A stretch of 38,183 bases of DNA. Origin: Candidatus Moranbacteria bacterium CG23_combo_of_CG06-09_8_20_14_all_35_22. GTDB lineage: Bacteria; Patescibacteriota; Minisyncoccia; Moranbacterales; UBA2206. A program made the translations under genes and the position numbers. The notes beneath the pieces are model-generated. The model saw only the letters and a list, made by a program, of their open reading frames with translations. It was not told the origin of the DNA and made no database searches. How positions within the stretch are numbered: position 1 is the first letter of the stretch; each line of letters opens with the position of its first letter. This document shows, piece after piece, positions 4,297 to 35,712 of the stretch. The stretch spans positions 1-38,183 of the forward strand of contig PCRW01000068.1 of the NCBI GenBank assembly GCA_002772115.1, read 5' to 3'.

Positions 4297-6117
4297 TTAT
4301 TCAGCTTTATAAATCTTTATAAAATTATCCGGTCGTCCGTCGATATACATCTCCCAAACGGGAGTTTTTGTTTCCAGAAAATTATTTAGCGGAATATATT
4401 TTCTTTGACAAGTATTTTTTCTTTTATTGCACCAATAATCATACATCATTTTTCCTTGTTGACTGAAAACATAATATTCAACTGGTTTCCAATTTTTTTT
4501 AGAAAGATATTCTCGGTAAGTTGTACCTTTGAAAAACTTAGAAAATCCGCCATAATCCGCCCAAACAACTATATTTTTTGCATCAGGGAGTGAATTTAGA
4601 TATTGCGCCACTTCATATCCGCCATATCCCCAAGCGCCGGACAAGATGTATTTTTGGGGAAGTAGAGAATTGATGTAGCTAAAATAAAAAGGCTTGGCTT
4701 GCCAAAGGCTCAAAAAACTTATGGCAATAATAGCCAGTGAAATATAAACCTTGTTGATATTTTTTAGTTTATTATGAGAAAAAAATTCATATAAGCCAAA
4801 AGAAGCTAAAATTGATACTAGCGGATAAAGAATAATGCTGTAGCGGACAGTGGAGGGAAGTTTTTCAGCAATTAAAGCGAAATAATAAACGATTATGAAT
4901 AATTGAAGAATGATTGAGGTAAAAGTCATATTTATTTTTTTAAATATTTGTTTTATCCAAATAAATAGTAAAAATATAATGACAAGTGGAGTGAGAGAAA
5001 AAGTTAAGGAATAAAATTGGTATAGTAATTTTTCTAAAAATAAAGAATCTTTTGTGAAATCAGATGAGCGAGTGGCATACTGCACGATATTTTCAGGATT
5101 TAAGAAGAATAAATTCGTGTTCCAGTTTATGATAACCGCTACAAAAGTTAATGTTAGTAATAGAGGAATAAATCTAAATATTTCTTCAAATTTTTTAGGA
5201 ATAAAGTTTATTATTTTGAGAGATAGTTTGCTGTTTAATTTGATAGCATCCGCAATGAGAAAAAATTGTATTATAAGTATAAGTGGCAATATCTTTTTCA
5301 TTGAGGAATAGCCGATTGTATAATCAAAAAAAAGTTGTTTATCAATAAAAACCGCCGGCATAAAAAAAGAAAAAACGGCTAATGATCCAATTATTGTTGT
5401 TAGATAAAAAATAGATATTTTTAATATTTTTTTATGGATTGGTATTGAATTTATTTTCCACTTTGGGATATTTAGAAAATAAAAAATCAGAGTGGCAATA
5501 AAAAGAAAAGGGAAAAAAATAACACTTACAAATTTTGTCAGAAGGGACAATCCCAGAAAAATAGGGGATAGCAATATGAACTTCTTTTCTTCCGTTTGTA
5601 GATAAGCGATAAAGTTCAGAAGTGTGGCAGTTGAAAAAAGCCAAAACAATGAATCGGGATTGATGATTTGGGAAATTCCTAAAAGAATAGGGGAAAGAAG
5701 CATCAAGGCGAAAGACCAAAAAGCAATCCAAAAATTGGCAGTTATTTTTTTTATCAGCCAGAAAATATAAAGCATAAAAAAAGCGTTGAAAAAAAGAATA
5801 GGCAGACGGAAAGATTTATACAGAGATTCAACTTTTAATATATTGCTAATATCTTTTTGTGGATTTTTTTCCCAAAAAAGAGAAATACCTGAAACAAGCG
5901 CAACTGGTATACCAGGTTTATCGCTAAGGACGGTAGCTGGCCAATCTTTTGGACTAAGACTATGCCAATATATATAAACTCTTTCGCCTATCCACAAATG
6001 TTCATCGGCAGTTTGAAATTGAGTCAGATGGTAAAAGCCAAAAGAAAAATAAATTACATAAACGATTAAAAACAAGAAAGCCAAAATACTTTTTTTCTTC
6101 AAATTTATTTTTTCCAT
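4297..6117 (-). CDS. Polytopic GT-C-fold glycosyltransferase (ArnT/PMT, GT39/GT83-like)
   Basis: 606 aa with more than 12 predicted TM helices. An acidic motif sits in the first extracytoplasmic loop (QTADEHLW). A soluble C-terminal domain of about 120 aa is present. Confidence 0.65.
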   Translation of the reverse strand: MEKINLKKKSILAFLFLIVYVIYFSFGFYHLTQFQTADEHLWIGERVYIYWHSLSPKDWPATVLSDKPGIPVALVSGISLFWEKNPQKDISNILKVESLYKSFRLPILFFNAFFMLYIFWLIKKITANFWIAFWSFALMLLSPILLGISQIINPDSLFWLFSTATLLNFIAYLQTEEKKFILLSPIFLGLSLLTKFVSVIFFPFLFIATLIFYFLNIPKWKINSIPIHKKILKISIFYLTTIIGSLAVFSFFMPAVFIDKQLFFDYTIGYSSMKKILPLILIIQFFLIADAIKLNSKLSLKIINFIPKKFEEIFRFIPLLLTLTFVAVIINWNTNLFFLNPENIVQYATRSSDFTKDSLFLEKLLYQFYSLTFSLTPLVIIFLLFIWIKQIFKKINMTFTSIILQLFIIVYYFALIAEKLPSTVRYSIILYPLVSILASFGLYEFFSHNKLKNINKVYISLAIIAISFLSLWQAKPFYFSYINSLLPQKYILSGAWGYGGYEVAQYLNSLPDAKNIVVWADYGGFSKFFKGTTYREYLSKKNWKPVEYYVFSQQGKMMYDYWCNKRKNTCQRKYIPLNNFLETKTPVWEMYIDGRPDNFIKIYKAE

Positions 6118-6170
6118 AATAAACTGTTGCTATTGATTATATTTTGTTTATTGTTTATAATTATTTTAGC

Positions 6171-11820: not shown

Positions 11821-13314
11821 TTATTTTTTCTTAAATATTATTTTTTTGAAAAAAGTAAAATCATCAAGGGTGAATTCTTTGAGGATAATTAAAACAAGAA
11901 GATAAATCCCAGCTAGGATAACGCTCCACAAAATGAAAAACCATTCTTGCGGAGGAAAAAAATTCGAAACAAGAAACATCAAAAATCCGGCGAAAATTAT
12001 TTTTGCAATGCTTTTTATTTGGATGAATTTTCCAAAATATCTTAGCGCATAAAATAATATTATCACAGTTATCAGTCCTGAAACAAGAGAAGTGGCGATG
12101 GCTGATCCGGAAATGCCAAATTTTAAAATCAAAATATAATTTAATCCAGCATTCAGAATCATTCCAAAAAGCGCAATGTACATTGGAATTTTGACTTTGC
12201 CGGCACCATTTAGCGCAAAACTTAGAACATAAAAAATTGTCAAAAATCCAACACCAGGAGCGAGGATTTGCATTGGCAAGACGGAATCGGCATAGCGGGA
12301 ACCAAAAAATAATTGAATGAGGGGTTCGGCATAAGCAACCATAAGAATTATTATCGGAACTAAAATCATCAGCATCAATCGAAAAGTCTGGCTCATTATC
12401 CGTTTTGTTTCTGTGAGATTATTTTGGGAAGTGGTTCTGGAAATCGAAGGCAACATTACCAAAGTTAGCGCGTAAAATAAATAATAGGGGATTCGGCCGA
12501 CAGTGAGTGAAGCGTTATAAATTCCAGTTAAATGATCATCAGCCAGCACTCCTTTGACTAGATATAAGTCCAAAGAAATCAGGAGTTCATAAAAAATCAT
12601 AAAAAGTGTCACGGGCCAAGCGTAATTAACTAGTTTTTTCCAATCAAAAAAATTCGCATTATTTTTGGGAAAATGCCGATTAATGAAAAATTTGTCAATC
12701 AGATAGGCGGTAAGAAAAACCGTAGCGGGAGCGAGAATATAGCCAGAGATGGAACCTTTCAATCCAAAAAAATAAGCTAGGCCAATAACAAAAATTATTC
12801 TGGCAAAAGAGCGAACTATTTTTAGGGTGGATTGCAGACTGAAGCGGTGAATGCCGATGTAATAATAAAGATAAAAAGAAGCGGCGGCAAAAGAGGGGAT
12901 AATCAAAGAAGAAATACGAAAAAGCGGAGTGAGAGTTGGATCACGCAAAATAAAGGATAGTACGGGAGCTAAAAGAAAAAATATTATCGTAATTATCCCA
13001 ATGAGGACAAATTGTAGTAAGGCCGCCTTTTTTTTGACACTCAAGACTAATTCTGGCTGACTTTCAAAAAAACCACTGATGTATTTACTCATAGCTGTCG
13101 GGATGCCATTGCCGATAAGCATAATGATCATTGTAGTGAGTGTCACAACTAATCCATAGCGTCCATAATCCGCGGGACCTAGCATTCGACCTAAAAATGC
13201 ATGGATAATATAACCAGAAAAATTGAAAAATATTTCTGCAATAGCCAGCCATAAAATTGAAGAAACTACGGTTTGTTTTTTTTCGCCAAAGGATGATTTT
13301 GCTAAATTTGACAT
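11821..13314 (-). CDS. Polysaccharide/oligosaccharide flippase (Wzx/MOP superfamily)
   Basis: 497 aa with about 14 TM helices and the typical polysaccharide-biosynthesis-protein layout. A 3-nt gap separates it from the downstream MPE gene, and its start overlaps the upstream gene by 13 nt. Confidence 0.75.
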   Translation of the reverse strand: MSNLAKSSFGEKKQTVVSSILWLAIAEIFFNFSGYIIHAFLGRMLGPADYGRYGLVVTLTTMIIMLIGNGIPTAMSKYISGFFESQPELVLSVKKKAALLQFVLIGIITIIFFLLAPVLSFILRDPTLTPLFRISSLIIPSFAAASFYLYYYIGIHRFSLQSTLKIVRSFARIIFVIGLAYFFGLKGSISGYILAPATVFLTAYLIDKFFINRHFPKNNANFFDWKKLVNYAWPVTLFMIFYELLISLDLYLVKGVLADDHLTGIYNASLTVGRIPYYLFYALTLVMLPSISRTTSQNNLTETKRIMSQTFRLMLMILVPIIILMVAYAEPLIQLFFGSRYADSVLPMQILAPGVGFLTIFYVLSFALNGAGKVKIPMYIALFGMILNAGLNYILILKFGISGSAIATSLVSGLITVIILFYALRYFGKFIQIKSIAKIIFAGFLMFLVSNFFPPQEWFFILWSVILAGIYLLVLIILKEFTLDDFTFFKKIIFKKK

Positions 13315-13916
13315 AATTTTTTTATTTCTTCAAAAACACTTTCTTTATTTTGATTGCCGTCAATTTTTTTCATATTCCAAAAGGAAAAATTAGCGTCATA
13401 CAATTCTTTTTTCTTTTTCAAATACTCCATTCCTTGATCAGGTTTTCGTTCGCGAGACATAATGATTTGCGGATCAGTTTGAAGATAGATCGCCAGATTT
13501 GGCTTCCTAACATCCGATGTTAGGAGTACTTTCCTAACATCGGATGTTAGGAGCGAAAGGTATTCAATATTCACAATGCTGTCATAAAAATATCGATCAC
13601 TTAATATATAATCAAATTTTTCTTTTTCCAATTTCTTGTATAATTTTTTAAAACGCCAAAGATCAATCATTAAAAATATTTTTCGTAAAAATATTTGAAA
13701 AAAATTGGCACGGATAACGCTTTTTTCTTTCTTGGACATTCGATGTCCAATTGGACATCGAATGTCCAAGAGACAACTAATTTTTTTAGCAAGGCCAAAC
13801 TCAATGGCATGAAAATAAAAGACCCGTTTATTTTGGGATTTTAGATATTCTTTTAGTAATTCTATTTGAGTGGATTTTCCAGAGCCATCTAGGCTGGAGA
13901 TTGTGATTAATTTCAT
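13302..13916 (-). CDS. Tmk-like P-loop NMP-kinase-fold protein carrying two palindromic in-frame inserts
   Basis: P-loop SLDGSGKSTQ, SDRYFYDS (DRY-type motif) and PNLAIYLQTDP (compare Tmk PDLTLYLD). The TMP-binding REPGGT-type motif is not visible, so true thymidylate kinase activity is uncertain. Confidence 0.6.
   Translation of the reverse strand: MKLITISSLDGSGKSTQIELLKEYLKSQNKRVFYFHAIEFGLAKKISCLLDIRCPIGHRMSKKEKSVIRANFFQIFLRKIFLMIDLWRFKKLYKKLEKEKFDYILSDRYFYDSIVNIEYLSLLTSDVRKVLLTSDVRKPNLAIYLQTDPQIIMSRERKPDQGMEYLKKKKELYDANFSFWNMKKIDGNQNKESVFEEIKKLCQI
13504..13557. repeat. Tandem 27-nt repeat (x2), each unit a 9-bp-stem hairpin, in-frame in the Tmk-like CDS
   Basis: ttcctaacatc[c]gatgttaggagtact / ttcctaacatc[g]gatgttaggagcgaa. 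The two hairpins differ only in the central loop base, so they are reverse complements of each other. They encode LLTSDVRKV-LLTSDVRKP. Confidence 0.9.
13731..13770. repeat. 40-nt perfect nested palindrome in-frame in the Tmk-like CDS
   Basis: cttggacattcgatgtccaa|ttggacatcgaatgtccaag. The whole segment is self-complementary and each half is itself an 8-bp-stem hairpin. It encodes ...LLDIRCPIGHRMS... Confidence 0.9.
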
Positions 13917-19108: not shown

Positions 19109-20233
19109 TTACACTTTACTATTTACTGATTTTATAATTTCTTCTAAATATCTCTGCGAAATTTTTTCCCAAGTGAAATTTTCCTCAACATATTTTCCGG
19201 CCATTTTGCCAAAATTTTTGGCAAATTCTGGTCCGGCGGAAAAAATAGCCTGGATTTTCTTGACCCATTGTTCGGTGTTTTCGCTTTCAACCAGAAAACC
19301 ATTCTTGCCATCCTTAATTGCTTCCGCCAAACCTTGATAATTAGAAGCAACAACTATTCGCTCACATGCTCCCGCCTCAATAACATTAATTCCAAAACCT
19401 TCCACTGATTCAGGATAGGGAATATTTGGAGATACAACTAAATCAACAGTATTCAAAAGCACTTCCAAATCTTTTTGTGGTAGATTGGGCATTAACTTTA
19501 CTCTGTTTTCTAAACCATTTTCCTTGATGGCCTTTTCGCAATCGGAAAAATTATCCGGATCGCCAGCGGTGTTTTTGGCCACTCGATATCCAGTTGCAAT
19601 CATAAGTGTATCTTCGGAGAGTTTTGGCATAACATTTTTTATAAACCAAGCCGTGCCTTTATGCGGAACAAATCTGCCAAGACGCAAAATAATTTTTTTG
19701 TTAGTAATATCGGAACCCCACAACGCAGACAAATCTTGTCGAGAAAATTCCTTTTTTAAATTTTCGATAAAAACCCCATTAGGAATGAAAACGCAATTTT
19801 CTTTGGGAATTCCAATTTTAACTGCTTCTTCGATAGTAAAATTTCCAATCATAAAAAGTTTGTCAAGTTTTTTGAGAGAGGGAATGTTAATCGCTTTGTA
19901 AATTTTTGGTAAATTTCCCTTTTTATAAGCAAAGGTTATATCTAATCCATGCACAACAGAAAAAAACTTTTTCTTAGGATGAAAAATTTTCAAAGCAAAA
20001 GCAATTGGCGCCAAAACGCCATTACCCACAAGACAAGCGTCATAATTCATCATTAAAAAAAATGCCCGTAGGAAAGTTATGGGTATAAAAACAGGAAGCC
20101 ACCATTTGCCTCGGCCATTGGCGATAATTTTAACAGTAGCAATTTTTGAAAGCCCTTGAGCTAAATTGTAATTTTGACTTTCCACTCCACCAAGAATTGG
20201 AGGATAGGAATGGGAGATAAAAAGAATATTCAT
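19109..20233 (-). CDS. GT4-family glycosyltransferase
   Basis: N-terminus ILFISHSYPPILGGVE. EX7E region ESVEGFGINVIEAGACERIVVAS. Confidence 0.8.
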   Translation of the reverse strand: MNILFISHSYPPILGGVESQNYNLAQGLSKIATVKIIANGRGKWWLPVFIPITFLRAFFLMMNYDACLVGNGVLAPIAFALKIFHPKKKFFSVVHGLDITFAYKKGNLPKIYKAINIPSLKKLDKLFMIGNFTIEEAVKIGIPKENCVFIPNGVFIENLKKEFSRQDLSALWGSDITNKKIILRLGRFVPHKGTAWFIKNVMPKLSEDTLMIATGYRVAKNTAGDPDNFSDCEKAIKENGLENRVKLMPNLPQKDLEVLLNTVDLVVSPNIPYPESVEGFGINVIEAGACERIVVASNYQGLAEAIKDGKNGFLVESENTEQWVKKIQAIFSAGPEFAKNFGKMAGKYVEENFTWEKISQRYLEEIIKSVNSKV

Positions 20234-20237
20234 ATTT

Positions 20238-20346
20238 ATGATGCAAATACACGAATCTTATGCTAATCTACGAATATGCAAATAATAGCGATTCGCATAT
20301 TTGTGTATTTGCATGAAAGCAATTCGCGTCATTCGTATTATAGTTT
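20238..20346. repeat. 109-nt dispersed repeat, copy 1 (fills the spacer between GT2 and GT4)
   Basis: tgatgcaaatacacgaatcttatgctaatctacgaatatgcaaataatagcgattcgcatatttgtgtatttgcatgaaagcaattcgcgtcattcgtattatagttta. I counted 5 differences from copy 2. Confidence 0.85.
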
Positions 20347-21321
20347 ATTATATTTATCCTTCTTCCATTGATAGAAAAATTCTTCGGTGAGTTGGCGGGT
20401 GGATTTTATCATATCGGCGATGAGAGCAAAAATTATCAGTTGGATTCCAAGAAACATGGAGATTGAAGAAAAAACAATATAATTGAGATAGGGTCGAATT
20501 TTGAAATCTTGGAAATAGAAAAAAAGAAAAAATATAAAACCAATTAAACCTAAAATCATAAAAAATATTCCTGGCCAGCCGAAAAATTTTAGCGGTCGGA
20601 CATCGCGGACTGCTTTGAGAATAATTTTTGTAGAATTACTTACAAATTTGAAAATAGATTTGGTGATTTTGGCTTGGCGATTGTCAAAATAAGTGACTGT
20701 GATTGGTACCCATTTCAATTTCAAATTTTTTCCAATAGCGTCAATTATCGTATCTTGAGTATAAGTAAAATACAGATTAGTCAAATTTAGCCGAAGAAGT
20801 GCTTCTCGAGAGTGAGCACGAAAACCACAAGTTAGGTCATTAGTTTTGTAATTTAGGAAAAAACCAATTACAGAAGCGGCAAAACGATTGAAGAAACTTC
20901 GTACCCACGGAATGTTTTTCGCTTTTTGTTCTCCAAAACGATTAGCAATTACTATATCTGCTTCTCCTTTTAGCACTGGCAAGAGAAGTTTAGGAATATC
21001 ATTAGGATCAAATTGTCCATCCGCATCAATATTTACCATAAAATCAGCGCCATTTTTGAGTGAGCTTTCCACTGCTTGTTTGAAAGAATAAGCCAAACGG
21101 CGATTAGGTTTATAAGAAACGACAATATCAGCGCCATTTTCTTTGGCAACTCGGGCAGTGCCATCAGTTGAGCCGTCGTTTACTACTTGAATTAATTTTT
21201 CATCTATCACGGTGCCTTCATTAGAATAAAAATTATGGGCAAAACTTTTTTTGATATTTTGAATTGTTTTTCCCAAATCCTTTTCTTCATTATAAGCGGG
21301 AATGTTAATGATTAGTTTCAT
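20338..21321 (-). CDS. GT2 polyprenyl-phosphate sugar synthase-like glycosyltransferase (Dpm1/GtrB/ArnC type)
   Basis: INIPAYNEEKDLGKTI, VNDGSTDGT and the DxD motif NIDADGQ are present, plus two C-terminal TM helices. This is the usual donor-making partner of GT-C enzymes. Confidence 0.8.
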   Translation of the reverse strand: MKLIINIPAYNEEKDLGKTIQNIKKSFAHNFYSNEGTVIDEKLIQVVNDGSTDGTARVAKENGADIVVSYKPNRRLAYSFKQAVESSLKNGADFMVNIDADGQFDPNDIPKLLLPVLKGEADIVIANRFGEQKAKNIPWVRSFFNRFAASVIGFFLNYKTNDLTCGFRAHSREALLRLNLTNLYFTYTQDTIIDAIGKNLKLKWVPITVTYFDNRQAKITKSIFKFVSNSTKIILKAVRDVRPLKFFGWPGIFFMILGLIGFIFFLFFYFQDFKIRPYLNYIVFSSISMFLGIQLIIFALIADMIKSTRQLTEEFFYQWKKDKYNKL

Positions 21322-21329
21322 AATAATTG

Positions 21330-21438
21330 TGATGCAAATCCACGAATCTTATGCTAATCCACGAATATGCAAATAAGAGTGATTCGCATATTTGTATATT
21401 TGCATGAAAGCAATTCGCGTCATTCGTATTATAGTTTA
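21330..21438. repeat. 109-nt dispersed repeat, copy 2 (fills the spacer between the small ORF and GT2)
   Basis: It has the same sequence and orientation as copy 1. Together the two copies directly bracket the GT2 gene at 20338-21321. Confidence 0.85.
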
Positions 21439-21785: not shown

Positions 21786-23003
21786 ATGAATAAAATAAAA
21801 ATAGGAATCAATGCCAGTTATCTTAGAAAGCCGAACACTGGTATCGGACAAGTGACAGCCAACTTTTTGAAAATGTTGGCAAGAGACAAAAATAATAACT
21901 TTGAATTTATTTTGTATTTAGAGGAAGAAATTCCAAAGGATTTCAAGCTTCCTAAAAATTTTACTAAAAAAATATTTTTGCCAATTTATAAGCGCGATGA
22001 TTTGATTCGAAAAATTTGGTGGGAAAAATTTCTTTTGCCGAGACAAGTCAAAAAAGACGGGTGTGATGTTTTTGTCAGTATGTACCAATGTCCCACTGTT
22101 TTCACAACGCTTAAGACGCCAAGCGTCTTGAATTCTGGACGCTTGGCGTCTTTGCGTCATATAATGCTAGTGCATGATATAATTCCAAAATTATTTCCCA
22201 AGTATTTGGATAATTTCAGAAAAAAAGTATATTGGAAATTGACGGAATATGGGATAAAAAAGGCGCACAAGATTATCGCTGTTTCCAAAAGAACGGAAAA
22301 AGATTTGATTGAACACTTGAATATCGGCGCAGACAGAATTACTACCAATTATATAGATGTCGATGAATGTTATAAGGTAGAGACGCAAAATTTTGCGTCT
22401 CTACGAGAGCGAAATATTTTAAAGAAATACAAATTAAATTCAGGATATATCTTAGCTGGTGGGGGATATGAGGTGCGAAAAAATGTCGAGGGTGTGGTGC
22501 GAGCCTATAAATTACTGTTAGAAAAAAACAAAAAAGAAAATTTTTTGCCAAATTTTCCGAAGTTAGCGATATACGGAAAGGTTTTGTCGGAAAGTTTGAG
22601 TCTGGCAACGCCGATAGAAAAAATATTGAGAGAATTAAATTTGACGAAAGATGTGATTCTTTTGGGTGAAGTCCCACAAAAAGACTTGCCGGCGCTGTTT
22701 AGTCATGCTATTGTGTTTGCTTACCCTTCGTTTTATGAGGGTTTTGGCATGCAAATTTTGGAAGCCATGAATGTGGGTACGCCTGCCATCACTTCCAAAG
22801 TTTCTTCACTGCCAGAAGTAGGCGGAGACAGTGTGTTATATTGTAATCCTGATGAAATTTCTGACATCGCAATGGTTTTGAAAAATATTTTAACGAATTA
22901 TGATTTACGAGAACAACTGAAAACTCGTGGCCAAGAACGCGCCAAACAATTTTCCTGGGAAAAATTTAGCGAGAAGATTTTAAATATAATTGAAGAAATG
23001 TAA
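21786..23003 (+). CDS. GT4-family glycosyltransferase carrying two palindromic in-frame inserts
   Basis: The motif YPSFYEGFGMQILEAMNVGTPAITS matches the paralogue at 24765-25925 (FPSFYEGFGMPIIEAMSLGVPTIVSD). Confidence 0.85.
   Translation: MNKIKIGINASYLRKPNTGIGQVTANFLKMLARDKNNNFEFILYLEEEIPKDFKLPKNFTKKIFLPIYKRDDLIRKIWWEKFLLPRQVKKDGCDVFVSMYQCPTVFTTLKTPSVLNSGRLASLRHIMLVHDIIPKLFPKYLDNFRKKVYWKLTEYGIKKAHKIIAVSKRTEKDLIEHLNIGADRITTNYIDVDECYKVETQNFASLRERNILKKYKLNSGYILAGGGYEVRKNVEGVVRAYKLLLEKNKKENFLPNFPKLAIYGKVLSESLSLATPIEKILRELNLTKDVILLGEVPQKDLPALFSHAIVFAYPSFYEGFGMQILEAMNVGTPAITSKVSSLPEVGGDSVLYCNPDEISDIAMVLKNILTNYDLREQLKTRGQERAKQFSWEKFSEKILNIIEEM
22113..22152. repeat. Near-perfect nested palindrome (double hairpin around a GAATTC centre), in-frame in a GT4 CDS
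   Basis: aagacgccaagcgtctt-gaattc-tggacgcttggcgtctt. It encodes ...LKTPSVLNSGRLASLRH..., which has no counterpart in the paralogue at 24765-25925. Confidence 0.85.
22377..22404. repeat. 28-nt perfect palindrome, copy 1, in-frame in a GT4 CDS
   Basis: gtagagacgcaaaattttgcgtctctac. It encodes VETQNFASLR. Confidence 0.9.
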
Positions 23004-24698
23004 ATGAATTTATTTTTTGAAAAAATAATTAATAACTTCAACAAGCCAAAAAATTGGCTTCTTTTGGCGAATGTGGTTTTGGTTTTTGTTTTGATAGTTT
23101 GCAATAATTTGGGAATTATTCCTTTGCGAATGGGGGATTTTGTTTTTTTTGCGATTTTAGTTTTGGGCTTGGCGCTGTATCGTCCTGGGTGGGCCTTTTT
23201 ATTTTTTGTTGGCACGATTGCATTGGAAAACATCAATTTGGCACCGGCCGAACTTGGAATTGCCATTCGACCCTATCAATTTATCGGCACGCTCACGATC
23301 ACGGCAATTATAACTCGATTACTTTCTGGAAAATTAAATTTCAAATTGGCAAAATTAAATTTTGTAGATTATCTAATTCTAATTATTACAGCGTCTAGTT
23401 TTGTAAGTGCGTTTATTTCTGCGGTAAAGATGCAAAATTTTGCGTCTCTACGGTTGGCGATAATTCTGGCGATATTTTCCGCGCTATATTTTTTAGTGCG
23501 AAATTATGTTCAAAATTTAGAAGATCTCAAAAAAATTATTCCTTTTTTTCTAAGTTCGGCGGTTGTCGTCGTGCTTTATGGCATTTGGCAAAATATTTGG
23601 TTTTTGAAAGGATTAAAAAGTTTTGAAACAATGTTGGGACGATCAAACGCAACTTTTTTCGAAGCGGATTGGCTGGGAATGTACTTAGTGTTGATAATAT
23701 CGATTTTAATAATTCTTTTTTCTGCCCTCTCCTCAACTCCCGCCTACCGGCGAGGCAGGCTCTCCCGATTACGGGCGAGGGGGTCATTGAAATTTCCTTC
23801 TCTCCCTTTGGGAGAGATATCCCGATGTAATCATCGGGACAGAGAGGGAAAGGGCGTATTAATAAAAATATTCTTATTTATATTTTTAACCTTATCTTTT
23901 ATTTTATTAATTCTTACTGTTTCACGCAGTGCTTGGCTCGGGGCATTTGCAATGACATTTATTTTTCTTTTCGCTATTCTAACAAATTTAAAATTTTATC
24001 TAAAACATTGGCAATGGAAAAAAACTATTCAAATGAAATTAATTATATTTCCGGCACTGTTAGTTGCAATTGGTGCAATTTATATTTTCCATCTGACTAA
24101 TTTCCAATTATTTAATCGAGTGCAATCAACTGGATCAGGAATGCAAAAAATTACCATTTCTTGTGATGCAAGGAACGCAAATTTGCATTCCCTACCGAAA
24201 GAAATTGAAAATATTTCTGAATTAGAAAAATATAATTGCCGGCATATAAATTTAGAAGAAATAGATTTTGAAAAAGCTAAAGGGAAATATGTTAGTGAAA
24301 TTTATCGTAAAGATCCAAATGTAAACATAAGAAAAGAAATTTATCAGAAATCTTGGCAAGAAATTAGAAATCATTGGATATTGGGAATTGGTTGGGGAAA
24401 TATTTCCAAAATATTAGGCAATGACGAAAAGGGGACGCCCTTGAATTCTTCCAATATATTTTTGGAAGTTTGGCTGGGCACTGGAATTTTAGGTTTTGCG
24501 TCTTTCGTTATTATGCTATCGTATATATTAGTAAGGGCAGTGAGAGATTATTATTTATCAAAAGATGATTTGCAAAAAATCGTCAGTTTATTTTTAATTA
24601 TTTCCTGGTTTGCAATTATTATCCCCAATCTTTTCAATGCCGGAATATTTTTAGGATTTTTGTGGGTTTGGCTGGGCATAGTACATATAAAAAAATAG
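23004..24698 (+). CDS. O-antigen ligase/polymerase-family (Wzy_C) membrane protein carrying three repeat-derived inserts
   Basis: Multi-TM protein with LTVSRSAWLGAF and a large outer loop followed by GIGWGN. Its ATG abuts the stop of the upstream GT4 gene. Confidence 0.7.
   Translation: MNLFFEKIINNFNKPKNWLLLANVVLVFVLIVCNNLGIIPLRMGDFVFFAILVLGLALYRPGWAFLFFVGTIALENINLAPAELGIAIRPYQFIGTLTITAIITRLLSGKLNFKLAKLNFVDYLILIITASSFVSAFISAVKMQNFASLRLAIILAIFSALYFLVRNYVQNLEDLKKIIPFFLSSAVVVVLYGIWQNIWFLKGLKSFETMLGRSNATFFEADWLGMYLVLIISILIILFSALSSTPAYRRGRLSRLRARGSLKFPSLPLGEISRCNHRDREGKGVLIKIFLFIFLTLSFILLILTVSRSAWLGAFAMTFIFLFAILTNLKFYLKHWQWKKTIQMKLIIFPALLVAIGAIYIFHLTNFQLFNRVQSTGSGMQKITISCDARNANLHSLPKEIENISELEKYNCRHINLEEIDFEKAKGKYVSEIYRKDPNVNIRKEIYQKSWQEIRNHWILGIGWGNISKILGNDEKGTPLNSSNIFLEVWLGTGILGFASFVIMLSYILVRAVRDYYLSKDDLQKIVSLFLIISWFAIIIPNLFNAGIFLGFLWVWLGIVHIKK
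23424..23451. repeat. 28-nt palindrome, copy 2 (2 mismatches), in-frame in the O-antigen-ligase-like CDS
   Basis: gtaaagatgcaaaattttgcgtctctac. It encodes VKMQNFASLR. Confidence 0.9.
23722..23856. repeat. GC-rich multi-hairpin block of about 135 nt, in-frame in the O-antigen-ligase-like CDS
   Basis: It contains cccgcctaccggcgaggcagg (23739-59), and the hairpins cccg-atta-cggg (23764-75), tctctccc-ttt-gggagaga (23799-817) and cccgatg-taat-catcggg (23821-38). It encodes STPAYRRGRLSRLRARGSLKFPSLPLGEISRCNHRDREGKG. Confidence 0.85.
24171..24192. repeat. Imperfect 22-nt palindrome in-frame in the O-antigen-ligase-like CDS
   Basis: aggaacgcaaa|tttgcattccc (9 of 11 arm positions pair). Its gcaaa-tttgc core is related to the 28-nt palindrome. 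It encodes ARNANLHSL. Confidence 0.6.
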
Positions 24699-24705
24699 GA
24701 AGGTT

Positions 24706-24752
24706 AAATTCGAGGTTTCACCTCGAGTAACTCGAGGTGAAACCTCGAATTT
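24706..24752. repeat. 47-nt perfect nested palindrome (double hairpin), intergenic
   Basis: aaattcgaggtttcacctcgagt-a-actcgaggtgaaacctcgaattt. Each arm contains the hairpin cgaggt-nnn-acctcg. It lies between the ligase-like stop (24698) and the GT4 start (24765). Confidence 0.9.
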
Positions 24753-24764
24753 ATTTAAATCATT

Positions 24765-25925
24765 ATGAAAATTGGCATTGACATTCGAAATATTGGCAAA
24801 AAAAGAACTGGCGACGAGGTGGTATTTTTCAATTTGACCAAAAATTTGGCTAAAATTGATAATGAGAATGAATATAAATTATTTACTGACATAACTGACA
24901 AAAATATTTTAGAAAGAGTTGGAAAAGATTTAGAAATCACAGATAAAAATAATTTTGAAATAATTTCACTGGAAGCTAAAAATAAATTCAGTTGGAATTT
25001 TTGGACGCTTCCGAAATATTTGCGAAAAAAACCAGTTGATGTTTATCTCACGCAATACATCACGCCGTGGTTTGTGCCAAATAAAGTGAAAATTATCACC
25101 ATTATTCATGATATTTCCTTCAATTTTTATCCGCAATTTATAAAAAAGTCAGATTTATTTTTTCTAAAAAGCTTAATTCCCTTGAGTCTAGAAAGAGCGG
25201 ACAAAATTTTGGCCGTTTCGCGCTTTACACAGGATGAAATAATTAAATATTATAAAATTGATCCCAAAAAAATTGATTGGTTTCATAATGCAGTTTCAGA
25301 TGATTTTTTGGTGCAAGATATATCAGAGGAAAAAATAAAAATAATCAAGAAAAAATACAATCTTCCAGAAAGATATATTCTATATCTTGGCACCTTACAA
25401 CCAAGGAAAAATATTCCAGCGCTTATTGAAGCGTTTGCTTTGCTAAAAGTAGAACTCGACTTGAAATTAAAACTTAATTTTACAAAGTTGGTTATCGCCG
25501 GAGGGAAAGGACATAATTATGACAAACTCATAGATGAAGTTGTTAGGGAAAATAATTTATCCGAGGATGTTTTTTTTCCTGGGTACATTGACGAAGATGA
25601 TAAGGCAGGAATATTGAAAGGGGCGGATATTTTTGTTTTCCCTTCATTTTATGAAGGATTTGGCATGCCAATTATCGAAGCAATGTCACTGGGAGTGCCA
25701 ACAATAGTTTCCGATATTCCACCTCACCAAGAAATAGCGGGTGATGCAGTGCTATATTTCAAACCGGAAATCCCTGGTGAGCTCACGCAAAAAATCAAAG
25801 AAATAATTAGCAGTGAAGTTGTGAGAGATAATGCATCGCGAAACGGAAAATTTCAAGCCCAAAATTTTTCTTGGGAAAAAAGCGCCCGAAAAATGCTGGA
25901 AATTTTTTCCCAGATGGTTGGTTGA
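24765..25925 (+). CDS. GT4-family glycosyltransferase
   Basis: FPSFYEGFGMPIIEAMSLGVPTIVSD. It is a paralogue of 21786-23003 without the inserts. Confidence 0.85.
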   Translation: MKIGIDIRNIGKKRTGDEVVFFNLTKNLAKIDNENEYKLFTDITDKNILERVGKDLEITDKNNFEIISLEAKNKFSWNFWTLPKYLRKKPVDVYLTQYITPWFVPNKVKIITIIHDISFNFYPQFIKKSDLFFLKSLIPLSLERADKILAVSRFTQDEIIKYYKIDPKKIDWFHNAVSDDFLVQDISEEKIKIIKKKYNLPERYILYLGTLQPRKNIPALIEAFALLKVELDLKLKLNFTKLVIAGGKGHNYDKLIDEVVRENNLSEDVFFPGYIDEDDKAGILKGADIFVFPSFYEGFGMPIIEAMSLGVPTIVSDIPPHQEIAGDAVLYFKPEIPGELTQKIKEIISSEVVRDNASRNGKFQAQNFSWEKSARKMLEIFSQMVG

Positions 25926-34426: not shown

Positions 34427-34451
34427 GGATCCTGAAATAAATTCAGGATGA
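34427..34451. repeat. 25-bp inverted-repeat arm (left) flanking the nuclease gene; itself a hairpin or operator-like palindrome
   Basis: gatcctgaaataaattcaggatgac is the exact reverse complement of 35656-35680. Confidence 0.85.
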
Positions 34452-34488: not shown

Positions 34489-35643
34489 TCATTTTTTCTT
34501 CACGCTTAAACTTTTGGTTTCTTTGTTGAGAACTTTGGCTTTTTCAATTTCCTTTTTGGCATCAAATGGTAAGACACCCAGAATATTTCGCAGTGCAATG
34601 CCATCTACTTTCAACACATCTTCCCAATGATCAAGTGGTTCCAAAACTTCACGGAGTTTTTTCTCGTCATATTTATAAGTTTTGCGAAGTGACCTCGCAA
34701 TGACGCCTTGTGGCCCAAAAACTCGCTCCACGCCTTCTTGATCCATATAACTCAAGATATCCTCTTGCAGTTTTGCTAAACGATCTTTGGTAATATTTAT
34801 CGCTGATTTCAAATCTATGTATTCTTCGATAGATTTGTTAATTTCTTCTGTGTCGATGTGACGCAGTTCTTTGAATTTATGTTTCCACATTGGGCAAAGA
34901 TTTTGGTATCCGCACCAATCGCAAAGAGGGGACATAGTCGGCTCAAAATTACCAGCCTCAATGACTTTTATAGTGTCTAAAAAGAGTTGTTCACTTTTTT
35001 TCAATTGTTCTAAGGTTCTTGTGGCGGATAATTTCATGCCATGTTTCAAATAATATAAGCTAACTTTTATTTTATCTAAATTTTGAATTTCTTTGGGATA
35101 ATTAGAAAGAAATGCTTGCAGATAAACAGAGAGTTGAATGTCGTTGTCAACTTTTTCTTGATTAGGCATTTTCTTGGTAGTTTTATAATCAATAATTTCA
35201 AAACCATCGTCAGTTTTGTCTATGCGGTCGATGATGCCAGAGATGATATGTCTTTCTTGGGCTTGCCCCGCGGTCGCCGTAGGTGACTTTGCGGGGCCTA
35301 TTTCAATTTGAAAACGGGATTCCAAATTGATAATATTAAAATCAGCCGGATTATTTTTTTGATAATAATCTTGAATAATTTTGACGCCTTGGGAAAAGGC
35401 GGCACGCTCCTCAGTTTCTCCGTCGAAAACTGCTGGGTTCCAGGAATTTCCAAAATGTTCCATAGCTTGATCCAAAGTAGGGGAGAGAATTCCCGGTGTA
35501 TGGATAAATTTCATTGTTTCATGAATTGTCGAGCCAAAAACCGCCTCCTTGGATTTAGGAACTTTAATTCGATCAATATTTTGAAATTTATATTTCAGCG
35601 GGCAATTCTGATAGGCATCAAAAGCACTGTAGGATATACGCAT
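34489..35643 (-). CDS. PD-(D/E)XK nuclease, Cas4/AddB-like with a 4-Cys cluster
   Basis: N-terminal SAFDAYQNCPLKYKF. Nuclease core GIIDRID ... EIIDYKT. CDWCGYQNLCP, together with the N-terminal Cys, fits an Fe-S staple. A C-terminal extension of about 130 aa follows. Confidence 0.75.
   Translation of the reverse strand: MRISYSAFDAYQNCPLKYKFQNIDRIKVPKSKEAVFGSTIHETMKFIHTPGILSPTLDQAMEHFGNSWNPAVFDGETEERAAFSQGVKIIQDYYQKNNPADFNIINLESRFQIEIGPAKSPTATAGQAQERHIISGIIDRIDKTDDGFEIIDYKTTKKMPNQEKVDNDIQLSVYLQAFLSNYPKEIQNLDKIKVSLYYLKHGMKLSATRTLEQLKKSEQLFLDTIKVIEAGNFEPTMSPLCDWCGYQNLCPMWKHKFKELRHIDTEEINKSIEEYIDLKSAINITKDRLAKLQEDILSYMDQEGVERVFGPQGVIARSLRKTYKYDEKKLREVLEPLDHWEDVLKVDGIALRNILGVLPFDAKKEIEKAKVLNKETKSLSVKKK
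35266..35296. repeat. GC-rich hairpin in-frame in the nuclease CDS
   Basis: ccccgc-ggtcgccgtaggtgacttt-gcgggg. It encodes ...AKSPTATAGQAQ... in an otherwise AT-rich gene. Confidence 0.7.
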
Positions 35644-35653
35644 AAGAAATAAA

Positions 35654-35712
35654 TTGTCATCCTGAATTTATTTCAGGATCTCAAGAGATGCTGAAACAAG
35701 TTCAGCATGACA
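35654..35712. repeat. Right inverted-repeat arm plus a second related palindrome, enclosed by a 7-bp outer stem (double-hairpin module)
   Basis: ttgtcat-cctgaatttatttcagg-atctcaagag-atgctgaaacaagttcagcat-gacaa. Both inner palindromes share CTGAA-N5-TTCAG. Confidence 0.8.

What the first reader, a model, noticed from the sequence alone, without database searches (positions are those of the whole stretch)
22113..22152. Double hairpin around a GAATTC centre inserted in a GT4 gene
aagacgccaagcgtctt-gaattc-tggacgcttggcgtctt has two 6-7 bp stem hairpins that are reverse complements of each other. It encodes about 14-16 residues (TLKTPSVLNSGRLASLRH) between the conserved ...DVFVSMYQCP... and ...LVHDI... 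blocks. The paralogue at 24765-25925 goes from DVYLTQYITP to TIIHDI with only a short ordinary linker. This is the clearest in-window evidence that such an element is an insertion into a pre-existing gene.
Basis: seen in the sequence. Interest (0 to 1): 0.65.

Follow-up and report, generated by a model that had tools for sequence, protein, structure and literature searches.

The report
Palindromic mini-insert in a glycosyltransferase loop
A 40-base DNA palindrome is inserted in frame into the part of a sugar-transferase gene that codes for a floppy surface loop in an ultra-small (Moranbacteria) bacterium; most relatives lack it, and the same short sequence occurs as a scattered repeat in unrelated Chloroflexota bacteria.

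Summary
Window 22113-22152 is a 40-nt near-perfect palindrome whose two 17-nt arms are themselves hairpins. It lies in frame in a GT4 glycosyltransferase gene of a Candidatus Moranbacteria genome.

It is a lineage-specific insertion. 110 of 120 orthologues have a 21-25-residue segment where this protein has 36. The unoccupied sequence (L-D-K-S-I-x-H) is shared by near and distant orthologues. The insert maps to a low-confidence loop between two beta-strands of the N-terminal domain.

That loop is a hot spot: nine other orthologues carry inserts there, and all five whose DNA was read are hairpin-forming. One non-sister orthologue carries the same element. It differs by three fully compensated base pairs that cost three amino-acid changes, so symmetry is kept at the DNA/RNA level.

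That variant is sequence-identical to a 33-nt double-hairpin repeat dispersed between genes in Chloroflexota.

Best reading (about 0.5): a REPIN-like miniature palindromic element, tolerated because it is in frame and sits in a permissive loop. Main rival (about 0.3): a palindrome made on the spot by template switching.

No mobilising enzyme and no second Moranbacteria copy were found. The GAATTC centre is incidental. I class it as a new variant of a known kind, of moderate interest.

The parts
21786..23003 (+). Host gene: a GT4 (GT-B fold) glycosyltransferase of 405 aa, in a cell-envelope polysaccharide cluster.
   Evidence: ORF. Pfam finds Glycos_transf_1 and Glyco_transf_4. Orthologues are named Candidatus Moranbacteria glycosyltransferase family 1. 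The AF2 model matches MshA, BshA and WaaG in the PDB.
22113..22129 (+). Arm 1: hairpin AAGACGC-CAA-GCGTCTT, with a 7-bp stem and 3-nt loop. It encodes K110-V114 and part of L115.
22130..22135 (+). Central spacer GAATTC. This is the loop of the long hairpin. The EcoRI site is not conserved in the related element.
   Evidence: L001 has AAATTC.
22136..22152 (+). Arm 2: TGGACGC-TTG-GCGTCTT. It is the reverse complement of arm 1 except for its first two bases.
   Evidence: (I13, 90% complementary).
22107..22157 (+). Extended palindrome. An outer 4-bp ACGC/GCGT stem encloses the 40-nt core. The left part (CACAACGCT, codons T107-L109) is absent from the L001 copy.
   Evidence: Fold; alignment.
22104..22148 (+). 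Approximate stretch of lineage-specific codons (T107-A121). The net gain is 13 codons over the ancestral V-L-D-K-S-I-R-H. Exact boundaries cannot be fixed at this divergence.

Best explanation
**What it is.** It is a miniature, non-autonomous palindromic element built like a REPIN. It consists of an inverted doublet of a 15-17-nt hairpin unit, AGAC-RC-YRA-GY-GTCT, around a short spacer. It became integrated into the codons of a disordered loop between beta-strands 4 and 5 of the N-terminal domain of a GT4 glycosyltransferase.

**Why it persists.**
- The net gain is a multiple of three (13 codons).
- The frame in use has no stop codon; two of the three frames are open.
- This loop tolerates large changes in length.

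The element is translated as a 13-residue loop extension that probably has no catalytic role.

**How symmetry is kept.** The palindromic symmetry is actively maintained at the nucleic-acid level. This happens either by arm-to-arm correction in the hairpin (template switching or gene conversion) or by selection on the hairpin. It overrides the encoded peptide of arm 2.

**Shown here:** the insertion, the hot spot, the loop location, the compensated changes, and the existence of the same sequence as a dispersed intergenic repeat in Chloroflexota.

**Inferred:** that it arrived by transposition-like integration of hairpin DNA, which enzyme did this (none is encoded in the window), and that it is neutral to the host.
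For: **1. Presence/absence.**
- 110 of 120 orthologues lack any insert at this loop.
- The unoccupied motif L-D-K-S-I-x-H is shared by close orthologues (P0003, P0005, P0008) and distant ones (P0010, P0089), so the empty state is ancestral.

**2. A second, non-sister carrier.**
- P0007, in locus L001, is 75% identical at the protein level and lies outside the clade P0001-P0006, P0008 and P0009, in which only the window's own protein P0001 carries this element.
- It carries the same element at the same site.

**3. Compensated differences.**
- The two copies differ at 8 of 40 positions.
- Six of these form three fully compensated pairs of the long hairpin.
- One stem pair changed G:C to A:T in both arms, which also preserves the short hairpins.
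- In arm 1 the changes fall on third codon positions and are synonymous. In arm 2 they fall on second positions and change the protein (R to H, L to S, A to V).
- The element is 80% identical between the two lineages, while four-fold degenerate sites in the rest of the gene are 51% identical.

**4. A sequence family exists elsewhere.**
- A metagenome scan found the L001 variant, AAGACACCGAGTGTCTT..GACACTCGGTGTC, in 20 further contigs with 14 distinct flanking contexts after duplicates are removed.
- These contigs have 51-67% GC. Two were typed: their proteins best match Chloroflexi/Anaerolineales and Caldilineaceae.
- There the element lies between genes, 8-30 nt after stop codons, and once in three tandem copies.
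- Other seeds with the same AGAC..GTCT ends and the same 15+3+15 layout occur in the same contigs.

**5. A second shared family.**
- The roughly 95-nt element with terminal inverted repeats (GTCATTGCGAG..CTCGCAATGAC) occupies this same loop in L005/L109.
- It is also found between genes in L110 and in Chloroflexota contig L085.

**6. Hot spot.**
- Ten of 120 orthologues carry inserts in this loop. All six whose DNA was read, this window's included, are hairpin-forming.
- Inserts of 6 or more residues cluster at about five loop positions of the model.

**7. Architecture.** The layout matches the published REPIN definition: two inverted REPs that form a hairpin, with compensatory changes common (PMC3116915). 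In-frame palindromic inserts are known from Rickettsia RPEs (PMC10969869).
Against: - No second copy of this element was found in the 38-kb window or in 110 kb of Moranbacteria loci.
- With the pattern used, only one copy was found in the 326-kb contig of the P0007 genome. In this lineage it therefore does not behave like a high-copy repeat.
- The window encodes no transposase, RAYT or other HUH enzyme.
- No target-site duplication or common target motif is visible.
- Within this one window, five nested palindromes share the same architecture but have unrelated sequences. That pattern suggests a generating process rather than sequence families.
- A nested palindrome carries only about 20 bits of information (a 7-nt stem plus a 3-nt loop). 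The match to the Chloroflexota family could therefore be chance. My rough estimate, not computed, is 10^-4 to a few percent.
Confidence: 0.5

Rival explanations
1. **Origin on the spot, with no mobile element.** The palindrome was created and later extended locally. The process would be template switching or fold-back (snap-back) synthesis during replication or break repair at a fragile site. Each event copies adjacent sequence as its reverse complement. Repeated events give a hairpin of hairpins with minimal 3-nt loops. The same process keeps the arms identical afterwards.
For: - Nested double hairpins with 3-nt loops and unrelated sequences recur in this genome: 13505-13552, 13732-13769, 22113-22152 and 24710-24748, each as a single copy.
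- Another, GGGAC-TAA-GTCCC.., sits at this same GT4 loop in L107.
- Sister genomes carry different palindromes at the same site.
  - In the tmk gene (thymidylate kinase), at the site of the window's palindrome 13505-13552, L109 has a different 42-nt palindrome and L110 has none.
  - At the GT4 loop, the window has this element, L109 has the 95-nt element, and L110 has none.
- The tmk palindromes cause little or no net change in length relative to orthologues. The palindrome at 13725-13776 is centred on I-G codons that also exist in the unoccupied L110.
- The 9 extra bases on the left in the window create pairing (ACGC) with the pre-existing right flank (GCGT).
- In the window, GACGCCAAG in arm 1 matches the reverse complement of the right flank CTTTGCGTC at 8 of 9 positions (read from the sequence).
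- Template switching is documented to create hairpins and to produce compensatory changes in a single event (PMC8794818).
- No transposase is nearby.
Against: - The same 40-nt element sits at the same site in a non-sister lineage, while intervening lineages keep the ancestral unoccupied motif.
- The arms of the L001 copy (GACAC/GTGTC) do not track its own flank (GCGCC).
- The L001 variant is identical to a multi-copy family in Chloroflexota. Local templating cannot produce that.
- The empty-site DNA of L003 shows no recognisable arm.
Confidence: 0.3
2. **Selected structured element.** The hairpin is kept because it does something for the gene. It might pause transcription or translation, act as a processing or stability site in the mRNA, or supply an internal promoter. 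Alternatively, the extended loop itself might be adaptive for the enzyme.
For: - Pairing is maintained by three compensated changes, at the cost of three amino-acid replacements.
- The fold is very stable.
- Arm 2 together with the native TATAAT gives a 10-of-12 match to a sigma-70 promoter at 22136-22165.
- The peptide encoded by arm 1 and the spacer, KTPSVLNS, is identical in both lineages.
Against: - It is absent from 110 of 120 orthologues, including the closest ones.
- Other lineages carry unrelated hairpins at the same place.
- There is no Rfam match.
- No T-tract follows the stem.
- The promoter hit is a consensus match in an AT-rich region, where 31 such matches were found against 15 expected.
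- The loop is predicted to be disordered.
Confidence: 0.08
3. **Ancient loop, lost in most orthologues.** The element was present in the common ancestor of the window lineage and the P0007 lineage and was deleted repeatedly elsewhere. Palindromes are deletion-prone.
For: - The window and L001 copies share the site and the flanking states: F before the element, S-L-R-H after it, and no D codon.
- The divergence between the two copies falls at synonymous positions of arm 1 and the spacer, as expected for divergence in place.
Against: - It needs at least five independent deletions (tree).
- Each deletion would have to restore exactly the L-D-K-S-I motif that distant orthologues also have.
- The element is much more similar between the two lineages (80%) than neutral sites of the gene (51%).
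Confidence: 0.07
4. **Assembly or sequencing artefact**, such as a chimeric fold-back read.
For: Palindromes can arise as amplification chimeras (general knowledge).
Against: - The exact protein is on 10 contigs.
- The P0007 version is on contigs from ENA, JGI and Logan samples.
- The insert is in frame and its changes are compensated across lineages.
Confidence: 0.02

Closest known systems
REPINs (REP doublets forming hairpins), mobilised by RAYT transposases (Bertels and Rainey 2011, PMC3116915)
   Same: - Two short palindromic units in inverted orientation around a spacer.
- The whole folds into a long hairpin.
- The arms are more conserved than the spacer.
- Compensatory changes keep the pairing.
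- The Chloroflexota relatives are multi-copy and lie between genes.
   Different: - Much shorter: 33-40 nt against roughly 70-110.
- It sits inside a gene and is translated.
- It is single-copy in the Moranbacteria DNA examined.
- It ends in AGAC..GTCT rather than starting with a GTAG-type 5' motif.
- No RAYT was found.
Rickettsia palindromic elements (RPEs; reviewed in PMC10969869)
   Same: - Palindromic elements inserted in frame into unrelated housekeeping genes of a small-genome bacterium.
- They are translated as extra peptide segments compatible with the protein fold.
   Different: - RPEs are about 100-150 bp and belong to about ten sequence families with conserved peptides and many copies.
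- This element is 40 nt, and the palindromes in this window are unrelated in sequence.
- The phylum is different (Patescibacteria).
[quoted passage not shown]
   Same: - Very short elements that fold as two adjacent hairpins.
- They are richer in G+C than their AT-rich host genome.
- They are optional between close relatives, which is taken as evidence of mobility.
   Different: - They live in organelle genomes of fungi.
- They lie mostly in intergenic, intronic or rRNA variable regions.
- No sequence relationship was tested.
- No mechanism is known there either.
Template-switch mutations that create and maintain hairpins (Monttinen and Loytynoja 2022, PMC8794818)
   Same: - Perfect inverted repeats appear in a single step.
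- Multiple compensatory changes can arise together.
- The process can act inside functional sequence.
   Different: - That process copies local sequence.
- It does not explain an identical element in another lineage or another phylum.
Coding palindromes in Nematomorpha mitochondrial genes (PMC6649704)
   Same: Long, perfect inverted repeats embedded in protein-coding sequence and translated.
   Different: - According to that paper's abstract, the repeats reach up to 284 bp and both arms encode parts of the proteins.
- Here the palindrome is an optional loop insert.

Membership tests
REPIN / REP-RAYT system | The unit is a short imperfect palindrome (REP). | tested here: met
   Arm 1 has a 7-bp stem and a 3-nt loop. 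At 17 nt it is shorter than the roughly 20-60 bp quoted for REPs.
REPIN / REP-RAYT system | Two units in inverted orientation plus a spacer form a larger hairpin. | tested here: met
   The arms are 90% complementary. The minimum-energy fold is a long hairpin.
REPIN / REP-RAYT system | Tens to hundreds of dispersed copies per genome. | tested here: not met
   One copy in the window, none elsewhere in 110 kb of related loci, and one pattern match in a 326-kb contig. The feature is met only in the Chloroflexota contigs. The whole genome was not available.
REPIN / REP-RAYT system | Extragenic location. | tested here: not met
   It lies inside the GT4 ORF, in frame.
REPIN / REP-RAYT system | A cognate RAYT (Y1 HUH transposase) gene, usually flanked by REPs. 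| tested here: inconclusive
   No such domain in any of the 26 larger window ORFs that were scanned; several smaller ORFs were not scanned. The rest of the genome could not be searched.
Rickettsia palindromic elements (RPE) | In-frame insertion into a protein-coding gene, translated. | tested here: met
   The ORF is continuous, with a net gain of 13 codons over orthologues.
Rickettsia palindromic elements (RPE) | Insert located where it is compatible with the protein fold (surface). | tested here: met
   In the AF2 model, residues 100-123 form a coil between E95-99 and E124-129, and pLDDT is about 50 for residues 111-120.
Rickettsia palindromic elements (RPE) | About 100-150 bp, belonging to multi-copy sequence families with a conserved peptide. 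| tested here: not met
   The element is 40 nt, with no other copy in the Moranbacteria DNA held.
Classical MITE | Terminal inverted repeats plus a target-site duplication, derived from a parent insertion sequence. | tested here: inconclusive
   The whole element is an inverted repeat. No duplication can be recognised at 75-87% flank identity. No parent insertion sequence was seen.
Mitochondrial double-hairpin elements (DHE) | Two adjacent hairpins; optional between close relatives. | tested here: met
Mitochondrial double-hairpin elements (DHE) | Resident in fungal mitochondrial genomes, with shared DHE sequence motifs. | not tested
   The host here is a bacterium.
Template-switch product | The new segment is the reverse complement of sequence already present next to it in the ancestor. 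| tested here: inconclusive
   In the window, part of arm 1 matches the reverse complement of the right flank at 8 of 9 positions. There is no such relation in L001, and no arm is recognisable in the unoccupied L003.
AGAC..GTCT 33-nt double-hairpin repeat of Chloroflexota (undescribed, defined here) | Arms AGAC-N7-GTCT that are self-complementary with a 3-nt loop, present as an inverted doublet. | tested here: met
   The window has AGACGC-CAA-GCGTCT and L001 has AGACAC-CGA-GTGTCT. The L001 arms are identical to the Chloroflexota consensus.
AGAC..GTCT 33-nt double-hairpin repeat of Chloroflexota (undescribed, defined here) | A 3-4-nt spacer, and a position between genes just after stop codons. 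| tested here: not met
   With arms counted as AGAC..GTCT, the spacer here is 8 nt and the element is inside a gene.

The most novel reading that the evidence does not exclude
Ultra-short (33-48 nt) nested-palindrome 'double-hairpin' elements form an undescribed class. They are shared between Chloroflexota and Moranbacteria (candidate phyla radiation, CPR).

- In Chloroflexota they are multi-copy and sit just after stop codons.
- In Moranbacteria they repeatedly colonise the codons of permissive protein loops and are translated.

The sharing of at least two element families (the AGAC..GTCT doublet and the GTCATTGCGAG.. element) would imply one of two things. Either DNA flows between the phyla, or both carry a common hairpin-specific mobilisation machinery.

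Once inside a gene, arm-to-arm correction drives amino-acid change in the loop.
Probability: 0.25. Interest if true: 0.75.

Novelty: new variant of a known kind. Interest (0 to 1): 0.55.

Why it matters
If the mobile-element reading is right, tiny hairpin elements are a routine source of loop-length variation in the proteins of ultra-small, uncultivated bacteria. That would parallel what was seen in Rickettsia, but with elements three to four times shorter.

**Practical consequence.** Many odd G+C-rich, R/G/P/S-rich segments in CPR protein predictions would be translated palindromes rather than functional motifs. This matters for annotation, for alignments and for structure prediction.

**Evolutionary interest.** The compensated changes are a clean natural example of DNA/RNA-level symmetry overriding protein sequence.

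**Open lead.** The sequence identity with Chloroflexota repeats, if not chance, would be a rare marker of genetic exchange or shared machinery between CPR bacteria and a specific other phylum.

If the rival reading (origin on the spot) is right, these genomes would be a rich natural record of template-switch mutagenesis in organisms with minimal DNA repair.

Tried and rejected
- **Rfam.** A gathering-threshold scan of the window and eight Chloroflexota loci gave no family at any element.
- **Plasmids and viruses.** The 35-nt Chloroflexota form has no match in 72,556 plasmids. The doublet pattern has none in the viral contigs.
- **Literature.**
  - Full-text searches for GACACCGAGTGTC and GTCATTGCGAG returned only unrelated primers and oligonucleotides.
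  - Searches combining CPR or Patescibacteria with palindromic or in-frame insertions found nothing relevant.
- **A possible local source.** At 24434-24452 in the Wzy gene, GACGCC-CTTGAATTCT gives a 16-nt gapped match to the element. I rejected it because that stretch encodes the conserved LNSS motif and does not co-vary in L001.
- **Shared stem with the 28-nt palindrome.** The 28-nt palindrome described under things noticed in passing has the same AGACGC/GCGTCT stem. In L001 the element has GACAC while that palindrome keeps GACGC, so there is no co-variation. I treated them as separate families.
- **Recent recombination tract between the window and L001.** The 30-nt flanks are about 80% identical by my own count on the alignment. 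That is above the 73% average for the whole gene, as expected for conserved codons, and third positions still differ. There is no near-identical tract.
- **EcoRI site as a functional centre.** Rejected, because it is AAATTC in L001.
- **A flawed script.** One of my regular-expression scans for AGAC..GTCT hairpins was flawed by greedy matching and its empty result is ignored. The nested-palindrome script is used instead.
Full report
**1. The observation**

The stretch 22113-22152 reads AAGACGCCAAGCGTCTT-GAATTC-TGGACGCTTGGCGTCTT, as reported. It is a 40-nt palindrome whose arms are 90% complementary (I13).

Each arm is itself a hairpin:
- Arm 1 has a perfect 7-bp stem and a CAA loop.
- Arm 2 has five Watson-Crick pairs plus a G-T pair, and a TTG loop.

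A single strand prefers one long hairpin to two short ones. The energies are -18.6 against -10.8 kcal/mol as DNA and -29.2 against -14.2 as RNA. In a 66-nt context the fold has z-scores of -8.1 and -8.7, and no shuffle folds as well. An outer ACGC/GCGT stem extends the palindrome to 22107-22157.

The window has about 33% G+C. It holds 8 long palindromes against 0.47 expected from first-order Markov randomisations. The feature is therefore real and not a chance event.

**2. Context**

The element lies in frame, at codons K110-S122, in a 405-aa ORF at 21786-23003.
- The ORF has the GT4 domain pair Glyco_transf_4 and Glycos_transf_1.
- Its AlphaFold2 model (pLDDT 90.2) matches the retaining GT-B glycosyltransferases MshA, BshA and WaaG.
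- Its closest relatives are annotated as Candidatus Moranbacteria.
- Neighbouring genes form a cell-envelope polysaccharide cluster: GT2, GT4, Wzy-like, LytR, a flippase and others. The 26 larger ORFs that were scanned contain no transposase.

**3. It is an insertion**

Across 120 orthologues, the segment from SxYQCP to VHDI is 21-25 residues long in 110 proteins and 36 here.

The closest orthologue without an insert, P0003, is 87% identical. It reads ...PTVLDKSIRHIM..., and its DNA has no palindrome. The motif L-D-K-S-I-x-H recurs in close and distant orthologues (P0003, P0005, P0008, P0010, P0089), so it is the ancestral, unoccupied state.

The net gain here is 13 codons. In the model, residues 100-123 have no secondary structure. 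They lie between strands 95-99 and 124-129 of the N-terminal domain, and mean pLDDT is 50 for residues 111-120.

The paralogue argument is correct but weak, since the two proteins are 31% identical.

**4. The loop is a hot spot for hairpin DNA**

Nine other orthologues carry inserts of 7-31 residues in this same loop. I read the DNA of five of them, and every one is hairpin-forming:
- L001 carries the same element.
- L005/L109 carry a roughly 95-nt element with GTCATTGCGAG...CTCGCAATGAC terminal inverted repeats.
- L107 carries another nested double hairpin, GGGAC-TAA-GTCCC..GGGAC-TTA-GTCCC.
- L106 carries a decayed nested hairpin.
- L108 carries three separate hairpins.

Inserts of 6 or more residues in the 120 proteins cluster at about five positions. 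All of them are loops of the model, near residues 36, 58, 103-122, 198-200 and 247-252.

**5. The second carrier and the compensated changes**

P0007 (locus L001) is 75% identical to the window protein. In a neighbour-joining tree it falls outside the clade P0001-P0006, P0008 and P0009. Within that clade only the window's own protein, P0001, carries this element; P0002 has a different one and the other six have none. Yet P0007 has the same element at the same site: AAGACACCGAGTGTCTT-AAATTC-AGGACACTCGGTGTCTT.

The two copies differ at 8 of 40 positions:
- Six differences are three fully compensated pairs of the long hairpin.
- One of them (G:C to A:T) changed in both arms, so the short hairpins are kept as well.
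- The arm 1 changes are third-position and synonymous.
- Their partners in arm 2 are second-position and change the protein (R to H, L to S, A to V).

Symmetry is therefore maintained at the nucleic-acid level, at the expense of the peptide.

The element is 80% identical between the two lineages, whereas four-fold degenerate sites of the rest of the gene are 51% identical. The intervening lineages keep the ancestral L-D-K-S-I motif. A single ancient insertion followed by five or more exact deletions is therefore unlikely. Two gains, or transfer of the segment between lineages, fits better.

**6. The same sequence in another phylum**

A metagenome scan with AAGACRCCRAGYGTCTT-N(2-14)-GACRCTYGGYGTC returned 21 loci. 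One is the P0007 contig. The other 20 give 14 distinct flanking contexts after duplicates are removed. They have 51-67% G+C and all carry AGACACCGAGTGTCT-NNN(N)-AGACACTCGGTGTCT; one has the CAA/TTG loop variant.

Two of these contigs were typed:
- An 803-aa ORF of L089 best matches Chloroflexi/Anaerolineales proteins.
- The NrfA of L102 is 75% identical to Caldilineaceae NrfA.

In these contigs the element lies between genes, typically 8-30 nt after a stop codon, and once in three tandem copies. The arms are invariant and the 3-4-nt spacer varies.

The same contigs hold further doublets with other inner sequences but the same AGAC..GTCT ends and the same 15+3+15 layout, for example AGACCG-ACG-CGGTCT.

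A second family is shared too. The 95-nt GTCATTGCGAG element that sits in this GT4 loop in L005/L109 is also found between genes in L110. It is also in Chloroflexota contig L085, 220 nt from that contig's AGAC doublet.

One caveat applies. A nested palindrome is specified by only about 10 nt, so a chance match to some family in a very large collection is not negligible. I estimate it at 10^-4 to a few percent, but I could not run the control scans.

**7. The wider pattern in the window**

Four perfect nested double hairpins and one imperfect one, all with unrelated sequences, occur in 38 kb. The four perfect ones have 3-nt loops:
- Two lie in the tmk gene (thymidylate kinase).
- One is this element.
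- One lies between Wzy and the next GT4 gene.
- One, imperfect, lies next to a nuclease gene.

Such structures are rare elsewhere. I found 1 in 473 kb of GT4 loci from other bacteria, and that one is in an Anaerolinea contig.

In tmk, the element at 13725-13776 is shared with the close relative L109 and is absent from L110. At the site of 13505-13552, L109 carries a different 42-nt palindrome and L110 carries none. This turnover of different palindromes at one site, together with the lack of repeated copies in 110 kb of Moranbacteria DNA, is the main argument for the rival explanation, generation on the spot.

**8. Mechanism**

My best reading (about 0.5) is a REPIN-like miniature element. It integrated into a permissive loop-coding site and was kept because it is in frame and stop-free there (two of three frames are open). 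It is held symmetric by arm-to-arm correction or by selection on the hairpin.

- Shown: the insertion, the hot spot, the loop location, the compensation, and the existence of a sequence family elsewhere.
- Inferred: the mode of integration, the enzyme, and neutrality to the host.

The rivals are:
- Origin on the spot by template switching or fold-back synthesis (about 0.3). This explains the diversity and turnover of the palindromes, but not the identical element in a non-sister lineage and in Chloroflexota.
- A selected RNA or DNA structure, or an adaptive loop (about 0.08).
- An ancient loop lost elsewhere (about 0.07).
- An artefact (about 0.02). This is excluded by independent assemblies.

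**9. Comparison with known systems**

- *REPINs* (PMC3116915). The architecture matches: an inverted doublet of a small palindrome, conserved arms, a free spacer and compensatory changes. It fails the copy-number and extragenic criteria here, and no RAYT could be tested beyond the window.
- *Rickettsia RPEs* (PMC10969869). It behaves like them in being an in-frame, translated, surface-located insert. It is three to four times shorter and is not part of a visible multi-copy family in this genome.
- *Mitochondrial double-hairpin elements* (Paquin et al. 2000, cited in PMC7218506). It resembles them in form and in being optional between relatives.
- *Template-switch hairpins* (PMC8794818). This process remains a plausible way in which the arms are kept identical.

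I found no description of such elements in CPR bacteria, nor of the AGAC..GTCT doublet, in the searchable literature.

**10. Verdict**

I class it as a new variant of a known kind, namely a miniature palindromic element inserted in frame. Its interest is moderate (0.55).

Two points raise it: the cross-phylum sequence identity and the clean case of structure overriding protein sequence. Two points limit it: no mobilising enzyme was found, and the Moranbacteria genomes could not be scanned whole for further copies.

Noticed in passing
window 13505-13552 and 13725-13776 (tmk gene, thymidylate kinase, 13302-13916, minus strand): There are two more nested double-hairpin palindromes inside this 204-aa gene. 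They are translated as LLTSDVRK-V-LLTSDVRK and LLDIRCPIGHRMSKK. The second is shared with relative L109 and absent from L110. At the site of the first, L109 carries a different 42-nt palindrome (L109:1410-1451) and L110 carries none. Net length change against orthologues is small.
   Followed up: partly
window 22377-22404 and 23424-23451; also L109:10718 and L109:12281, L110:10596, L001:8006: A 28-nt palindrome, GTAGAGACGCAAAATTTTGCGTCTCTAC, is translated in the same frame in two adjacent genes (VETQNFASL in GT4, VKMQNFASL in Wzy). Copies sit at orthologous positions in related genomes, and L001 has a variant loop (AATCAATT). It starts with GTAG and ends with CTAC, like REP units.
   Followed up: partly
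window 24705-24753: A perfect nested palindrome (TCGAGGT-TTC-ACCTCGA, GTAAC, TCGAGGT-GAA-ACCTCGA, with AT-rich outer pairs) fills the 66-nt gap between Wzy and the next GT4 gene. It scores as terminator-like. Relatives L001 and L003 have unrelated AT-rich repeats in that gap.
   Followed up: partly
window about 23690-23840 (Wzy-like gene 23004-24698): A G+C-rich, lineage-specific segment (SSTPAYRRGRLSRLRARGSLKFPSLPLGEISRCNHRDREGKGV) contains the hairpins TCTCTCCCTTTGGGAGAGA and TCCCGATGTAATCATCGGGA. L003 has a different insert at the same place, and L001 has almost none.
   Followed up: partly
window 34428-34451 and 35656-35679, flanking ORF 34489-35643 (minus strand): A PD-(D/E)XK (Cas4-like) nuclease gene is bracketed by a perfect 24-nt inverted repeat (ATCCTGAAATAAATTCAGGATGAC / GTCATCCTGAATTTATTTCAGGAT). 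Each copy is itself a hairpin, and the right one is paired with a related hairpin at 35688-35708. All contigs that carry the protein show the same neighbours, so mobility is not shown. A nuclease flanked by hairpin repeats recalls RAYT genes flanked by REPs.
   Followed up: partly
window 20232-20347 and 21323-21438: A 116-nt direct repeat, 94% identical, lies in the two regions just upstream of the minus-strand genes 19109-20233 and 20338-21321. It looks like a duplicated promoter or leader region.
   Followed up: no
L005:3376-3471 and L109:10391-10486; L110:20619-20690; L085:6519-6599: A palindromic element of about 80-95 nt with GTCATTGCGAG...CTCGCAATGAC ends and inner GCAATCTC/GAGATTGC repeats was seen. 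It is in frame in the GT4 loop of one Moranbacteria genome, intergenic in another, and intergenic in a Chloroflexota contig. I found no paper that quotes the sequence.
   Followed up: partly
L097:2400-2538; L089:3780-3812; L091:7049-7081 and 6104-6136: The Chloroflexota contigs carry 33-nt double-hairpin doublets of several seeds that all begin with AGA(C) and end with (G)TCT. They lie mostly just after stop codons, and in L097 as three tandem copies with a 53-nt period. This looks like an undescribed REP-like repeat class.
   Followed up: partly
window 22136-22165: Arm 2 of the element (TGGACG) together with the native TATAAT, 18 nt downstream, gives a 10-of-12 match to a sigma-70 promoter inside the GT4 gene. 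It is only a consensus match in AT-rich DNA.
   Followed up: no
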